Assembly: GCA_965208125.1 (NCBI GenBank)
Contig: OZ242320.1
Location: 5,440,001 to 5,504,000, forward strand
Length of the DNA: 64,000 nt
Direction: 5' to 3'
From: Candidatus Latescibacterota bacterium
Lineage (GTDB): Bacteria; Latescibacterota; UBA2968
The translations under genes and the position numbers were made by a program. Under the pieces are notes generated by a model. It was not told the origin of the DNA. It worked only from the letters and a program-made list of their open reading frames with translations, and ran no database searches. Position 1 is the stretch's first letter; every line of letters begins with the position of its first letter. Positions 38,917-42,089 of this stretch are shown here, one piece after another.

Positions 38917-39010
38917 AGAAGTAAGAAGTGAAAAGTGAGAAGTCCACCCAATACCTCCCCAGGGCGGATGCTTCTTCACCTTCACACTTCTACCTTCACA
39001 CTTCACACTT
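38917..39010. repeat. Inverted arrays of degenerate heptamers (AAGTGAG/CTTCACA)
   Basis: AAGTAAG-AAGTGAA-AAGTGAG...CTTCACA-CTTCTAC-CTTCACA-CTTCACA; related units at 44641-44690 and 45813-45830. Confidence 0.7.
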
Positions 39011-42000
39011 CAACCGGTAACCCCACAAATAACCGACTGTACTCATCCGTCAACGGATCGCGCTCGCCCTTTTGCGCTGCGCGGGCAAATACCACGCCCG
39101 GCGTCTCCGACCTGCGTGCCCGCGCAAAAACACCATATCCACCGGGCGCACTCTGCGTTTCCAGATCGCTCTGAATCGCCAGCATCTCCGCCAGCGCATT
39201 GGCCAAACCCCAGCGTGCACCAATCGCCCGAGCAAAAAGCTCCTCTGGCGTCAGCCCCTCTCGAAAACCGCGCTTCAGAGGCGTGACTCCGCCCCAGGCG
39301 TTCTGCGTCACACCCTGGGGAGCCACATACAGCCGGACTTGCTGCCAATTGGCACGCGCACCACATTCCACCAGAAGCGCAGGAATCCCGAGATCATCGT
39401 CGTCATATCCGCGGAACTGCGCCAACACAGCCGACACCTCATCGGGATAATCGCGCCAGACATCCGGATCATCGCCCTCTGGCGGACCGGGCCAATCGAG
39501 CGACGAACCGATAAACGCACTCATCGACGCACCTGTCTTGCGCGCGGCATCAAACCCCTTATCCCACAACCGCGCTGCCAGATCCAATGCAGCCTTCGCA
39601 CCATCGCGAGCCATTGCATCTGCCATCCAGCCCATCACCTGATGCTTATCGACAAATAATCCATTTCGCTCCATCTCGTCGCCGACAATCTCCGCAATCT
39701 CCTGCCCCCCCTCATCCGTCATACTCATATACGCCAGGCCAAACAGCGCATCGTGCATCGGGTGTACCTTCTCCCGTACAATCAGCCCCGGATCCCGAGT
39801 CAGATGCGCCACCGCCGACAGATGCTCTTCAGCCGACCACTGACCTTCTTCAGTCACCGGCACAAAAATCGCCACCTGATCGCCGTCAAAATCCATATTC
39901 ATCATCTTGCAAATCGCCACACTCACGCGCACGGCATCATCCGCCACGCGCACCGGACGACACGCCACAAAAGCCATTGGCGAAAACGCGGGATTGCGAA
40001 GCACCACAGTCCATAACTCAGCCATAGCCGCATCCAGGGCTTCCTCCGCTTTACTCGACCGCCTATCCACTTCTTCAGCACCCACCTCTCGTGCTGCAAA
40101 CGGCCCGAACAACGTCCACGCCATTTCTTCGGGCACACCGACCTGATCGTATCGCAATTCGGGTGCAGGCACAGCCACCGAACGCCCGCTGAACAACGCA
40201 CGCGCCTGAAATTGCAAACGCGACAACTCGCAAAATGCGCGAACCCGCTCAGAAAGCGTTTCAACCGCCCGATCCACCAGCACATCTGGCGCGCCATTGG
40301 CAATCATCTCCGCCAATCGGTCATTGGCTTCTCGCAATGCGAGAGGCACATCTTCTCCACTCACATGAGTCAACGAATGCCCCGGCAACCACGGATGCGG
40401 AACCGAACGCGCAAGCGCGAAATCTCCATCGCGCTTCAATGAAAACTCGGCACCGCGTTCATCCAGCGCAACAGCCACCCCACCTTTCGACAAATACCCA
40501 ATTAGCTCATCAAACTGAGGAGACGGCACAGTGGGAGCAACAGGACCTACAATGACGCGTTCTGCCAGAGTATCGGCATCATCTCGATCTACCGCGCACG
40601 TATTGAACAAATCGCCAATCACCCCAAAAGCACCCGCTTCTCGCAACGCCAAAAACTCTGTCTCGCCCAACCCTTGATCGTGTTGATCCGGCTTCACACC
40701 CATGTGAATTTTATCTGCCGCCAGATGCAACGTGCGCCCCCAATACACCCACCCCACTGTGGTACGGCGCAGTAGCGCTTCCCCATTCACCGTCAGCGTC
40801 TCCATACCATCTTCTGCCAGCCCATTAGCACTCAAACGACCGCGTATCTCATCGTCTTTGGGCGCATTGAGCGCGGGAACAATAACCGGCTCCCCCTCGG
40901 CCTTTGCAATGCGCCCGACCACAGCTTCGCGCAACTGTCCAATATTCAACCGCGACGGTAAACCACATACACTCACAATAAGCTCCACAGGCGTGCCATC
41001 TGGCAATTTGGGCATCTGTTCATCTCGCACAATGCGCGACACCACCCCCTTAAAACCGTGTCGATTGCTCAGCTTATCGCCCGGCGCAACGCGATTGGGC
41101 AGCATCAGCCGGTTCGCCGCGGATTCGCTGATCACAACTGCATCTTCATGTGCATCCCCATTCCACGCCATAAACGCGGTCAGCAAATTGTACCCCGTCC
41201 AGAAATGCGGATCGCGCGGTTCACATCCCGTTTGCACCAGCGCGGGTTCCGACTCCAGTATCTTGCCGTCATATTGCGTGTGATACGCGTGCCACACACC
41301 CTGCTCATCGCGCTGCATATCGGGACCCGGCGCGCCAATCCACTGCCGCATCATATTCACACCCATCAAAACGCGATTGGTATCATTGTGTTCCAAAAAC
41401 GGAACCACCGAAGCGCCTATCCCCAACCGCTTTTCAGGCGCATCGTCTTCAATCACCAGCTTGCCATCGCGAATAGTCGCCCCCTGAGCCACCTCTAAAA
41501 TCCGCGCGAGATTCGGCCCCTCAGGCGTACAATAAGGACACACGCGCCCATCGTGTGACGGATGATAGCAATTCTCTATTCCCTCATCGGCCTCACCGAT
41601 AATTGGGATCAACGTCACCCGCCGCAAATGAACGTACATATCCTGCAAATTGGTCGCCTGCAAATACTGAGAGGTCGGTTCTTCCGTAAAAAATGTGTGA
41701 ATCCAATCTCCCAACTGTATCCATGTTTCAACTGTATCATCCAGTATCTCTGGCATATTTTCCAGCCGCTCGGCAATATAATCGCGCAATTGCTCCCCCA
41801 CACACCGAATCTCAGCACGCACCAAATCCACATCAGTCGGCGCGGGAACTACCGTCCGAAAAAAACCATCCACCTTAAACCGACCCCATTCATCGGGTTG
41901 AGGAATATTGTTGTACACGATCTCTTGCCCCCCCTGAATCGCGAGATGCAATTCACAGGTATATTCATCCACCGACACCACCCGATACCCCGCCAGCGAC

Positions 42001-42089
42001 ACCCGATCTGCCAACAATTCGGGCAACCCCTTTTGAATAAACGCATCCCACGAAATTTTATGCCACGGCGCCTTTACTGAAAGACTCAT
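39003..42089 (-). CDS. Miniaturised single-chain RNA polymerase beta-beta' (RpoB-RpoC) fusion
   Basis: Collinear RpoB motifs (SQYLQATN...[88 protein letters not shown]) then RpoC motifs ([18 protein letters not shown] at 39879-39899, GARA, FREGL...GARWGLA, GERDPL); RBS AGGAGG before ATG 42089. Confidence 0.93.

What the first reader, a model, noticed from the sequence alone, without database searches (positions are those of the whole stretch)
39003..42089. Miniature single-polypeptide RNA polymerase built from fused, gutted RpoB and RpoC
Seen: one intact ~1028-aa ORF with its own RBS carries the core motifs of bacterial beta and then beta', in the correct order. These include the metal-binding triad (NMDFDGD vs canonical NADFDGD), beta ED (HEDAV), both conserved lysines ([12 protein letters not shown]), PSR, the switch-region His (HLAADKIH), beta' SGRSV, R-x-P, and the F-loop/bridge helix (FREGL...GARWGLA). 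Known: canonical beta plus beta' total about 2,700 aa, natural rpoBC fusions (Helicobacter, Wolbachia) are full length, and YonO-type single-subunit enzymes are far more divergent than this. Inference: this is a second, streamlined RNAP clearly derived from cellular RpoB/RpoC at well under half the size, retained beside the housekeeping enzyme. I do not know a characterised family like it.
Basis: partly seen in the sequence, partly recalled or inferred. Interest (0 to 1): 0.97.

Follow-up and report, generated by a model that had tools for sequence, protein, structure and literature searches.

The report
Mini fused RNA polymerase with own sigma
This bacterium carries, beside its normal RNA polymerase, a conserved gene for a one-piece polymerase less than half the usual size that always travels with its own sigma factor, a pairing that does not seem to have been described before.

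Summary
Window 39003-42089 (-) is an intact 1028-aa ORF that joins stripped-down beta and beta' cores in one chain. Pfam finds Rpb2_3, Rpb2_6 and Rpb1_2, and the AF2 model has pLDDT 93.7. The canonical rpoB-rpoC pair lies elsewhere in the same 5.75-Mb genome.

It is not a relic. Hundreds of full-length homologues (about 1000-1070 aa) exist, dN/dS is 0.10-0.22, and the catalytic residues are kept in 59-69 of 69 members.

- In 34 of 34 related loci that have upstream sequence, from MAGs labelled as five phyla, an ECF-type sigma gene lies directly upstream on the same strand.
- That sigma gene is preceded by a conserved promoter, TGAAC-N15-GGTGTC.
- This is the only strong copy of the promoter in the genome (40.9 bits; next best 17.3).
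- The polymerase has lost the lobes, flap, zinc/lid region, trigger loop and jaw, but keeps the clamp-helix hairpin, which is the sigma-docking site.

My best reading (about 0.55) is a two-protein, self-amplifying, sigma-dependent mini-holoenzyme. The main rival (about 0.3) is that sigma acts through the host core enzyme and only switches the gene on.

My seven literature searches found no description of it. The closest analogue is yeast plasmid Orf6. Polymerase activity and sigma binding are untested.

The parts
39003..42089 (-). Mini-RNAP gene: 1028-aa single-chain beta::beta' fusion (P0002). The longest frame, from the ATG at 42125, would give 1040 aa.
42096..42100 (-). GGAGG ribosome-binding site, 6 nt before the ATG at 42089
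   Evidence: read directly from the sequence
41142..41147 (-). Beta E315-D316 (metal B ligand region)
   Evidence: E in 61 of 69 and D in 64 of 69 family members
41046..41081 (-). Beta barrel motif [12 protein letters not shown] with the two catalytic lysines (K339, K347)
   Evidence: G337, D338, R343 and G345 in 69 of 69; K339 in 64 (plus 4 R); K347 in 65
40233..40343 (-). Retained beta' clamp-helix hairpin (residues about 583-619), the canonical docking site of sigma region 2
   Evidence: One search aligns profile positions 561-780 to this genome's own RpoC residues 268-524. models helices 583-597 and 602-619. One search shows the signature positions N589, R591, L592, A600, P601, L604, L612 and V616 kept in 42-65 of 69.
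39879..39899 (-). Beta' barrel metal-binding motif NMDFDGD (D733, D735, D737)
   Evidence: D in 67, 67 and 66 of 69
42132..43925 (-). ABC exporter (ABC_membrane + ABC_tran). A lineage-specific cargo gene inserted between sigma and the polymerase.
   Evidence: for the domains; present only in the window and 7 close loci, with a different 40%-identical ABC gene in L019; sigma and the polymerase are at most 113 bp apart in 19 of 27 loci.
43981..44586 (-). Dedicated ECF-type sigma factor, 201 aa. Probable TTG start at 44586 after AGGAGGA at 44593-44599.
44609..44634 (-). ECF-type promoter: -35 box TGAAC (44630-44634), 15-nt spacer, -10 box GGTGTC (44609-44614)
44712..44739 (-). Intrinsic-terminator-like hairpin (12 pairs plus a T run) that insulates the unit from the upstream gene
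38883..38915 (-). Intrinsic-terminator-like hairpin (14 pairs plus a T run) just after the polymerase stop codon

Best explanation
The locus is a self-contained transcription module with two conserved genes. One is an ECF-type sigma factor. The other is a 1028-aa single-chain RNA polymerase made by fusing the catalytic cores of bacterial beta and beta'.

Shown by the data:
- The polymerase keeps both double-psi barrels with their metal and phosphate ligands.
- It keeps the fork domain, switch regions, F-loop/bridge-helix region, the beta' C-terminal conserved block and the clamp-helix hairpin.
- It has lost the beta lobes, the beta flap, most of the beta' N-terminus (zinc/lid region), and the trigger loop and jaw.
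- The sigma gene is preceded by a promoter, TGAAC-N15-GGTGTC, conserved across phyla. This is the only strong copy in the genome.
- The unit is bracketed by terminator-like hairpins.

Inferred:
- Sigma region 2 docks on the retained clamp helices, so sigma plus the mini-polymerase form a two-protein holoenzyme. It would need neither alpha, omega nor the host core enzyme.
- This holoenzyme reads its private promoter and so transcribes its own operon. That makes a positive-feedback, orthogonal expression circuit. The host enzyme with the same sigma, or read-through, could fire the first round.
- Genes inserted between sigma and the polymerase (here an ABC exporter) come under this circuit.
- Without a trigger loop, flap and lid, the enzyme should be less accurate and should respond differently to pauses, hairpin terminators and inhibitors that target the missing parts.

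The benefit to the cell is unknown.
For: Polymerase identity and integrity:
- Pfam and NCBIfam matches and the PDB profile search.
- Collinear mapping to this genome's own RpoB and RpoC.
- AF2 model with pLDDT 93.7 and pTM 0.92.
- Foldseek best hits are bacterial beta chains at E about 1e-24.

Selection:
- dN/dS is 0.10-0.22 in 9 pairwise comparisons and 0.09-0.37 in every one of 8 segments.
- D733, D735 and D737 are kept in 67, 67 and 66 of 69 members. K339 and K347 are kept in 64 and 65. D316 is kept in 64. R698 and P700 are kept in 59 and 62.
- 66 of 168 genomes of the phylum carry a family copy, and most copies are uninterrupted. The call listed 67, one of which is a canonical rpoB. In the window's own genus, 20 of 20 other genomes carry it.

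Linkage to sigma:
- A sigma homologue lies directly upstream on the same strand in 34 of 35 loci. The 35th is a 1151-bp fragment.
- It is the only other gene family shared by 20 distant loci.
- Across the phylum, 61 genomes have both genes.
- The sigma is a distinct orthologue group: 338 bits, against at most 115 for the other 15 sigma-like matches in this genome.
- It has a conserved motif in the region 2 to region 4 linker.
- No anti-sigma partner is conserved.

Promoter:
- The motif lies upstream of sigma in 19 of 20 regions by pattern. The 20th has the same boxes with a 14-nt spacer.
- The window has 1 match where 0.01 is expected.
- The genome has 3 exact matches, against 2 for the reversed control.
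- By weight matrix the site scores 40.9 bits and the next best 17.3. Orthologous sites score 20.3-43. The window's own site was among the 18 training sites.
- The motif sits at the expected place upstream of the module in 5 of 5 other genomes.

Clamp helices are kept while almost every other peripheral module is lost.

Complex prediction gave weak support only:
- Score 0.46; best of 3 controls 0.00.
- The mark was reached by 58 of 80 solved complexes and 2 of 110 mismatched pairs.
- At 0.60 or under it was reached by only 7 of those 80, and by both mismatches that passed.
- The runs agree in at least 22% of contacts, and the partner's pLDDT is at least 63.
- My own alignments were used, so these counts hold only roughly.
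- Sigma-RNAP complexes have been solved, so the pass may reflect likeness only.
Against: - The beta flap, which normally anchors sigma region 4, is deleted. Yet the promoter keeps a canonical two-box ECF layout, which fits sigma acting on the host core enzyme.
- The clamp-helix segment is among the least conserved parts. The commonest residue has a mean frequency of 0.43, and dN/dS there is 0.20-0.29 against 0.12-0.22 for the whole gene in the same pairs. Clamp helices also bind NusG-type factors (PMC6211774 passage), so keeping them does not prove sigma binding.
- One complete genome (G143) has an intact polymerase with no sigma orthologue. None was found genome-wide at E<=1e-45, nor within 9 kb upstream or 3.9 kb downstream.
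- With only one recognisable promoter per genome, a holoenzyme that reads only its own operon has no evident output apart from inserted cargo. Other motif copies all lie inside coding sequence.
- The bridge helix is poorly conserved (0.37) and the trigger loop is absent, so the rate and even the template type are uncertain.
- The complex prediction is weak.
- No biochemical or direct transcript-end evidence exists.
Confidence: 0.55

Rival explanations
1. Sigma works only with the host core RNA polymerase. It is an ordinary autoregulated ECF sigma whose single regulon is its own operon. The mini-polymerase is simply the regulated product, and it then initiates without sigma at unknown sites or on unknown templates, as YonO may do.
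For: - The promoter has a canonical ECF two-box layout.
- Sigma region 2 has the usual ECF sequence pattern.
- The flap that would anchor region 4 is missing from the mini-polymerase.
- G143 keeps an intact polymerase without the sigma.
- I recall that ECF sigmas with a single adjacent target gene are known (group ECF41). Of PMC3426412 I saw only the search listing.
Against: - It does not explain why a polymerase stripped of nearly all peripheral modules keeps the sigma-docking hairpin.
- It does not explain why the sigma linker is conserved.
- It does not explain why sigma and polymerase are the only co-inherited pair across phyla, with no anti-sigma.
- The complex prediction passed weakly against controls scoring 0.00 (see the caveats under the best explanation).
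Confidence: 0.3
2. The protein is not a DNA-dependent transcriptase. It could be an RNA-templated or otherwise specialised two-barrel polymerase (as eukaryotic RdRPs are), or a catalytically idle scaffold or regulator that binds sigma or nucleic acid.
For: - The modules that hold downstream duplex DNA (beta lobes, jaw) and the trigger loop are lost.
- The bridge helix is weakly conserved.
- No output regulon was found.
Against: - Catalytic ligands are conserved in 59-69 of 69 members, which argues against an idle scaffold.
- The nearest relatives by sequence and fold are DNA-dependent bacterial beta and beta'.
- The fork domain and switch regions are retained.
- It is genetically tied to a DNA-promoter-recognising sigma.
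Confidence: 0.08
3. The module is cargo of a phage, plasmid or other mobile or defence element, not a chromosomal host function.
For: - The distribution is patchy within the phylum (f1 24 of 30, f2 3 of 22, f10 0 of 13).
- It occurs in MAGs labelled as five phyla.
- A variable cargo slot lies between the two genes.
- Some genomes carry two copies (G071).
Against: - None of 50,697 phage records and none of 72,556 plasmid records covers 80% or more of the protein. All hits there are canonical rpoB/rpoC.
- Most of the 80 IMG/VR loci listed match at 20-25% identity, and the two I inspected carry separate 888-aa and about 1000-aa genes. Twelve others show 39-57%-identical best segments; most of these matches are partial, and I did not inspect them.
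- There is no PADLOC hit and no fused PHROG.
- The flanks are syntenic in the close relatives, and 20 of 20 other genomes of the genus carry the gene.
- No integrase or other mobility family is shared between loci.
Confidence: 0.07

Closest known systems
Yeast cytoplasmic linear plasmid (virus-like element) RNA polymerase, pGKL2 Orf6 plus Orf7 (PMC2919709 and PMC6211774, passages read)
   Same: A polypeptide of about 980-1030 aa that fuses beta-like (Rpb2) then beta'-like (Rpb1) conserved regions. About half of each parent is removed, and peripheral modules such as the lid are missing.
   Different: - Orf6 lacks almost the whole clamp, including the coiled-coil. It needs a separate small subunit (Orf7) that carries the beta' C-terminal regions. 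It is described as viral or eukaryote-related and uses an upstream conserved sequence, not a sigma.
- Here the clamp helices and a block matching the beta' C-terminal region (weakly) lie in the same chain. The parents are bacterial, and a dedicated sigma is co-inherited.
- PMC6211774 states that the Orf6 fusion is not known in any other RNAP.
YonO of Bacillus prophage SPbeta and YonO-like proteins (PMC5467207, passages read)
   Same: A single-chain two-barrel DNA-dependent RNA polymerase of about 100 kDa without a recognisable trigger loop. It shows that such a minimal enzyme can be active and processive.
   Different: YonO shares only a few catalytic residues with multisubunit enzymes, is phage-borne, and has no known sigma. 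This family aligns to beta and beta' over about 700 residues and scores 168 and 99.5 bits against the rpoB and rpoC models.
Full-length RpoB-RpoC fusions (NCBIfam PRK09603 and PRK14844, models of 2839-2890 positions)
   Same: Beta followed by beta' in one polypeptide.
   Different: Those are complete housekeeping enzymes. This protein scores 157-168 bits against cut-offs of 4632-5372 and is about 36% of their length.
Reduced multisubunit RNA polymerases of phages (the mReC lineage, PMC7481178, passages read; jumbo-phage enzymes, PMC7824862, passages read)
   Same: Shortened beta and beta' homologues that work without host core subunits.
   Different: In the two IMG/VR loci I inspected they are separate genes of 888 aa and about 1000 aa, only 20-25% identical to this protein. 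The group 1 jumbo phages are reported to encode no sigma factor (PMC7824862 passage).
ECF (group 4) sigma-70 family factors
   Same: The partner protein has Sigma70_r2 and r4 domains and passes TIGR02937 (122.5 bits; cut-off 42.9). Its promoter has the two-box ECF layout.
   Different: No anti-sigma gene accompanies it. The always-adjacent partner is a polymerase, and the linker is conserved. The main text of the ECF re-classification (PMC7826278) contains none of the six polymerase or phylum search words I tried. Its supplements, which hold the group descriptions, were closed.

Membership tests
Two-barrel (double-psi beta-barrel) RNA polymerase superfamily | Beta'-type barrel with the DxDGD metal triad | tested here: met
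   NMDFDGD at residues 731-737. D733, D735 and D737 are kept in 67, 67 and 66 of 69 members. Rpb1_2 matches at 9.4e-15.
Two-barrel (double-psi beta-barrel) RNA polymerase superfamily | Beta-type barrel with two invariant basic residues and the acidic ED | tested here: met
   K339 in 64 of 69 (plus 4 R), K347 in 65, E315 in 61, D316 in 64. Rpb2_6 matches at 5.8e-39.
Two-barrel (double-psi beta-barrel) RNA polymerase superfamily | Invariant R-x-P of the beta' side (listed among the eight universal residues in PMC2919709) | tested here: met
   R698 in 59 of 69 and P700 in 62 of 69
Two-barrel (double-psi beta-barrel) RNA polymerase superfamily | RNAP-like fold | tested here: met
   AF2 pLDDT 93.7, pTM 0.92. 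Foldseek hits to bacterial beta chains at E 7e-25 with probability 1.00.
Two-barrel (double-psi beta-barrel) RNA polymerase superfamily | Template-dependent NTP polymerisation | not testable with these tools
   Needs biochemistry.
Canonical bacterial RpoB / RpoC (NCBIfam TIGR02013, TIGR02386) | Score above the curated equivalog cut-off | tested here: not met
   167.8 bits against 801.15, and 99.5 against 963.5. The genome's true rpoB and rpoC score 1823.7 and 1438.3.
Canonical bacterial RpoB / RpoC (NCBIfam TIGR02013, TIGR02386) | Beta lobes, beta flap, beta' N-terminal zinc/lid region, trigger loop and jaw all present | tested here: not met
   This genome's own RpoB residues 155-425 and 802-1055, and RpoC residues 117-267 and about 789-1291, have no counterpart. 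Of the RpoC N-terminus, only a weak match to 101-116 remains.
Full-length RpoBC fusion (PRK09603 / PRK14844) | Score above the cut-off and a length of about 2800-2900 aa | tested here: not met
   156.5 and 167.7 bits against cut-offs of 5372 and 4632; length 1028 aa
YonO-like single-chain polymerases | Homology to multisubunit enzymes limited to a few catalytic residues; phage or prophage context | tested here: not met
   Extensive collinear homology to beta and beta'. No phage context. I made no direct comparison with a YonO sequence.
Yeast VLE Orf6/Orf7-type polymerase | Beta::beta' fusion with the clamp coiled-coil missing and the beta' C-terminal regions on a second small subunit | tested here: not met
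   The fusion order is the same. Here, however, the clamp helices are present and the C-terminal block is in the same chain (weak match to own RpoC 1292-1322). The Orf6 features are taken from PMC6211774 passages.
ECF sigma factors (for the partner gene) | Regions 2 and 4 only; passes TIGR02937 | tested here: met
   Sigma70_r2 at 1.5e-18 and Sigma70_r4_2 at 9.9e-15. TIGR02937 scores 122.5 against a cut-off of 42.9.
ECF sigma factors (for the partner gene) | Cognate anti-sigma factor encoded beside it (common but not universal) | tested here: not met
   No third gene family is shared by 20 distant loci.

The most novel reading that the evidence does not exclude
This would be a natural two-protein holoenzyme. 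An ECF-like sigma docks on the retained clamp helices of a 1028-aa beta::beta' single chain and directs it to a private promoter, TGAAC-N15-GGTGTC. It would be the first sigma-dependent single-chain RNA polymerase. It would also be a self-amplifying transcription circuit, orthogonal to the host, that needs no alpha, omega, flap, lobes or trigger loop. Cargo genes are repeatedly inserted into it.
Probability: 0.45. Interest if true: 0.93.

Novelty: new variant of a known kind. Interest (0 to 1): 0.88.

Why it matters
It would define, by a natural experiment repeated across several phyla, the smallest part of the cellular beta/beta' enzyme that selection still keeps. It would also show that the two large subunits can be fused and stripped to about 1000 residues while staying close enough to the cellular enzyme to be aligned and modelled with confidence.

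If the linked sigma really is its initiation factor, three things follow:
- The minimal requirements for sigma-dependent promoter recognition and DNA opening become directly testable with two proteins.
- The result bears on how multisubunit polymerases and their initiation factors evolved.
- It would offer a compact expression system of about 3.7 kb, built on the cellular rather than the T7 type of enzyme.

Because the flap, trigger loop, jaw and beta' N-terminus are gone, it may also escape factors and inhibitors that act on those parts. This last point is inference only.

Tried and rejected
Further targets of the sigma:
- The exact motif occurs 3 times in the genome, against 2 for the reversed control.
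- In the weight-matrix scan the next best site scores 17.3 bits.
- In five other genomes there are 3-8 exact matches each, against 0-3 for controls.
- The five extra copies I fetched all lie inside coding sequence. Two of them are identical and antisense in a duplicated gene.
- I therefore found no regulon beyond the operon.

Conserved third gene: none in 20 distant loci. The other clusters are antisense shadow ORFs inside the polymerase gene.

Cargo theme: two kinds of ABC exporter, a PNP_UDP_1 protein, and a 381-aa ORF with no Pfam hit. In L029 the only sizeable ORF in the gap is a 148-aa minus-strand ORF, also with no Pfam hit. No common theme emerged.

Mobile or defence origin: no family member in the phage or plasmid collections. 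The viral contigs I inspected hold only remote two-gene forms. There was no PADLOC hit for the polymerase, and PHROGs gave only partial hits to full-size phage subunits.

Expression:
- Eight metatranscriptome runs hold 5-13% of the sampled words.
- Four were laid. All are contigs of 90-95%-identical relatives, and together they cover sigma, the ABC gene and the polymerase.
- One 2421-nt contig bridges the ABC/polymerase junction, and one 3694-nt contig covers 38900-41770.
- Contigs from RNA libraries may hold DNA and cannot show transcription, strand or ends.
- Contigs of two studies stop at 44611-44621, which is inside rather than after the predicted promoter. This neither supports nor refutes the predicted start site.

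Literature:
- Seven full-text searches found no description of a bacterial mini beta::beta' fusion or of a sigma linked to one.
- The survey by Iyer and Aravind on the bacterial transcription apparatus, which I recall as the most likely place for such a mention, is not held, so I could not check it.
The ECF group tables of PMC7826278 and the alignments of PMC2919709 may bear on novelty.

The ESM Atlas gave only this family's own unnamed clusters and some longer fused clusters. These are leads, not evidence.

Not done: a phylogeny placing the family among bacterial beta/beta', and a residue-covariation analysis of sigma against the polymerase.

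
Full report
**The observation**

The minus strand of the window holds one uninterrupted frame, 39003..42125 (1040 aa). The ATG at 42089 is preceded by GGAGG at a spacing of six bases.

All quoted motifs are in the translation. Pfam finds Rpb2_3 (residues 153-211 of the 1040-aa frame), Rpb2_6 (345-475, 5.8e-39) and Rpb1_2 (709-766, 9.4e-15), in that order. 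NCBIfam's rpoB and rpoC equivalogs match at 167.8 and 99.5 bits. The cut-offs are 801 and 963.5, and the full-length fusion models need 4632-5372 bits. The protein is therefore clearly related to beta and beta', and clearly not a canonical copy.

The genome is one 5.75-Mb contig. It has a normal rpoB (1823.7 bits) and rpoC about 285 kb away.

**What was kept and what was removed**

I searched a profile of 69 full-length family members (A1) against this genome's own RpoB and RpoC. It gives collinear blocks:
- Profile 91-203 matches RpoB 426-560 (fork domain).
- 211-253 matches RpoB 632-675.
- 254-295 matches RpoB 760-801, ending at the ED motif.
- 304-523 matches RpoB 1056-1289 (second half of the barrel, switch 3, C-terminus).
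- 561-780 matches RpoC 268-524 (clamp helices, switch 2, the barrel with the aspartate triad).
- 773-967 matches RpoC 560-788 (up to the bridge helix).

Searches with single segments add weak but collinear matches (the search space was two proteins only):
- The N-terminus matches RpoB 34-50 and 127-154.
- The junction strand matches RpoC 101-116.
- The well-conserved C-terminal tail matches RpoC 1292-1322.

The missing parts are the beta lobes (RpoB about 155-425), the flap (802-1055), most of the beta' N-terminus, and about 500 residues of beta' that hold the trigger loop and jaw (about 789-1291).

AlphaFold2, run with the family alignment, gives a very confident single-chain model (mean pLDDT 93.7, pTM 0.92, no segment below 50). 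Its best structural matches are bacterial beta chains (E about 1e-24, probability 1.00). In the viral library the best matches are RNAP subunits of giant viruses.

**It is a selected gene family, not a relic or artefact**

- The first homologue search gave 1588 proteins at E<=0.001 among 8000 scored candidates. Of the 120 listed, 113 are 1002-1068 aa, with identity from 100% down to 43%. All are named 'hypothetical' where named at all.
- A filter-free search of 1.84 billion representatives gave 337 proteins at E<=1e-30, including about 80 full-length representatives at the 50% clustering level.
- A search from a Chloroflexota member gave 458 clusters at E<=1e-100.
- dN/dS against nine relatives is 0.10-0.22, and 0.09-0.37 in each of eight segments.
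- The universal catalytic residues are kept in 59-69 of 69 members.
- In the host phylum, 67 of 168 genomes have a match at E<=1e-60. One of these is a canonical rpoB. The matches include 20 of 20 other genomes of the window's genus, and most are uninterrupted. A handful are truncated or split (L035 and L040).

I compared the window's neighbours with 35 related loci from species-representative genomes. These are MAGs labelled Latescibacterota, Armatimonadetes/Chthonomonadales, Planctomycetota, Caldilineaceae and Spirochaetales.
- The ECF-type sigma gene (window 43981-44586) has a homologue directly upstream of the polymerase, on the same strand, in 34 of 35 loci. The 35th is a 1151-bp fragment.
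- An all-against-all comparison of 20 distant loci finds no other shared gene family.
- The sigma is 43-54% identical between phyla, where the polymerase is 34-47% identical.
- It forms its own orthologue group: 338 bits, against at most 115 for the 15 other sigma-like matches in this genome.
- It carries a conserved motif in the linker between regions 2 and 4.
- In the phylum, 62 of 168 genomes have this sigma at E<=1e-45, and 61 genomes have both genes.

The exceptions are as follows:
- One sigma lies at a contig end (G156).
- One 'polymerase' hit is a canonical rpoB false positive (G001).
- Three are truncated or edge copies (G135, G146, G149).
- One sigma is split by a frameshift (G140).
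- One is a true exception: G143, with an intact polymerase and no sigma within 9 kb upstream or 3.9 kb downstream.

The ABC exporter that separates the two genes in this window is present only in the window and seven close loci. In 19 of 27 loci the two genes are at most 113 bp apart. Elsewhere the slot holds a different ABC exporter, a phosphorylase-superfamily gene or unknown ORFs.

**A private promoter**

Upstream of the sigma gene, 19 of 20 non-redundant regions carry TGAAC-N15-GGTGTC. The 20th has the same boxes with a 14-nt spacer.
- In the window the motif lies at 44609-44634. It is followed by AGGAGGA and a TTG that opens the conserved N-terminus of the sigma.
- One match is found where 0.01 is expected.
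- The whole genome has 3 exact matches, against 2 for the reversed control.
- A weight matrix built from 18 sites, the window's own among them, scores this site at 40.9 bits and the next best in 5.75 Mb at 17.3. That is below every orthologous site (20.3-43).
- In five other genomes the motif sits at the expected place upstream of the module. The extra copies I fetched lie inside coding sequence.

Terminator-like hairpins flank the unit at 44712-44739 and 38883-38915. A sigma-70-like promoter for the next gene follows.

In this genome the unit therefore reads: terminator, private promoter, sigma, ABC exporter, mini-polymerase, terminator.

**How it most likely works**

Shown: a conserved, selected two-gene module, a catalytically equipped minimal beta::beta' chain, and a promoter of ECF type conserved across phyla and unique in the genome.

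Inferred: the sigma is the initiation factor of the mini-polymerase. My reasons are these:
- The linkage is strict and exclusive.
- There is no anti-sigma gene.
- The sigma linker is conserved.
- The clamp-helix hairpin is retained, with its signature positions kept in 42-65 of 69 members, in an enzyme that has shed nearly every other peripheral module.

A complex prediction of sigma with residues 1-790 gave only weak support:
- The score was 0.46, and the best of 3 controls scored 0.00.
- The mark was reached by 58 of 80 solved complexes and 2 of 110 mismatches.
- At 0.60 or under it was reached by only 7 of those 80, and by both mismatches that passed.
- The runs agree in at least 22% of contacts, and the partner's pLDDT is at least 63.
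- My own alignments were used, and sigma-RNAP complexes are solved, so the pass may reflect likeness only.

Against this reading:
- The flap that anchors region 4 is gone.
- The hairpin is among the faster-evolving segments.
- Clamp helices also serve NusG-type factors.
- G143 lacks the sigma.
- A holoenzyme that reads only its own operon has no visible output beyond inserted cargo.

I put the sigma-dependent holoenzyme at about 0.55. The main rival, in which sigma acts through the host core and merely switches the polymerase gene on, gets about 0.3. A non-transcriptase role gets about 0.08, and a primarily mobile-element role about 0.07.

**Comparison with what is known**

The nearest characterised analogue is Orf6 of the yeast cytoplasmic plasmids, a 982-aa Rpb2::Rpb1 fusion (PMC2919709, passages). 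Its authors call the fusion unique among RNAPs. They describe it as lacking the clamp coiled-coil, lid, rudder and rim helices, and as needing a second small subunit (PMC6211774, passages). The bacterial family keeps the clamp helices and a block resembling the beta' C-terminal region in one chain, has bacterial parents and comes with a sigma.

YonO is far more divergent and phage-borne (PMC5467207, passages). In the two IMG/VR loci I inspected, the phage enzymes are two reduced but separate subunits, 20-25% identical (PMC7481178, passages). No member occurs in the phage or plasmid collections or in PADLOC.

Seven full-text searches found no description. One likely source was not held and supplements were closed, so 'undescribed' is provisional.

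**Verdict**

The finding is real, and more interesting than reported. It is a new, widespread bacterial family of single-chain mini RNA polymerases derived from beta and beta', co-inherited with a dedicated ECF-type sigma and a private promoter.

I rate it a new variant of a known kind (the two-barrel RNA polymerases). Polymerase activity and sigma dependence still have to be shown at the bench.

Noticed in passing
P0256 (2309 aa) and P0260 (1948 aa), hits: By Pfam these metagenomic proteins are triple fusions in one chain: alpha (RNA_pol_L + RNA_pol_A_bac), then beta, then beta'. P0259 (2522 aa) and P0264 (2246 aa) are beta::beta' fusions without alpha. The ESM Atlas also lists unnamed clusters of 1221-1787 aa whose members carry both Rpb2_6 and Rpb1_2. 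Fused RNAPs of several sizes seem to exist.
   Followed up: partly
window 45822-46859 (-) and 44763-45695 (-): A 345-aa protein with a DksA/TraR-type C4 zinc finger, and a 310-aa protein with no family hit, lie just upstream of the sigma unit, separated from it by a terminator. Both stay next to the module in Latescibacterota, down to a locus whose polymerase is 58% identical (L043), but not in other phyla. DksA-type fingers bind the RNAP secondary channel, so a link is conceivable.
   Followed up: partly
window 35461-38791 (-); L010, L017, L025: BlaI-type repressor genes paired with BlaR1 (M56)-TonB_C fusion genes, often followed by WG-repeat proteins, lie downstream and are repeated in tandem in relatives.
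   Followed up: no
G071 (two full modules), G135, G146, G037 second hit: Some genomes carry two sigma-polymerase modules. Others hold truncated polymerase copies without sigma, such as a 373-aa C-terminal fragment and an N-terminally truncated 966-aa frame.
   Followed up: partly
L026, L030, L038 (upstream of sigma): In these loci the promoter motif lies about 170-250 nt upstream of the sigma start, instead of 20-60 nt. This leaves a long leader that contains short direct repeats.
   Followed up: no
mini-RNAP residues 941-985: The F-loop/bridge-helix segment is the least conserved part of the family (commonest residue at a mean of 0.37). The C-terminal tail is among the most conserved (0.68). 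I recall the bridge helix as being highly conserved in canonical enzymes.
   Followed up: no
L040:7135-7947 (+): In one Planctomycetales locus the slot between sigma and the polymerase holds a gene of the PNP_UDP_1 phosphorylase superfamily.
   Followed up: no
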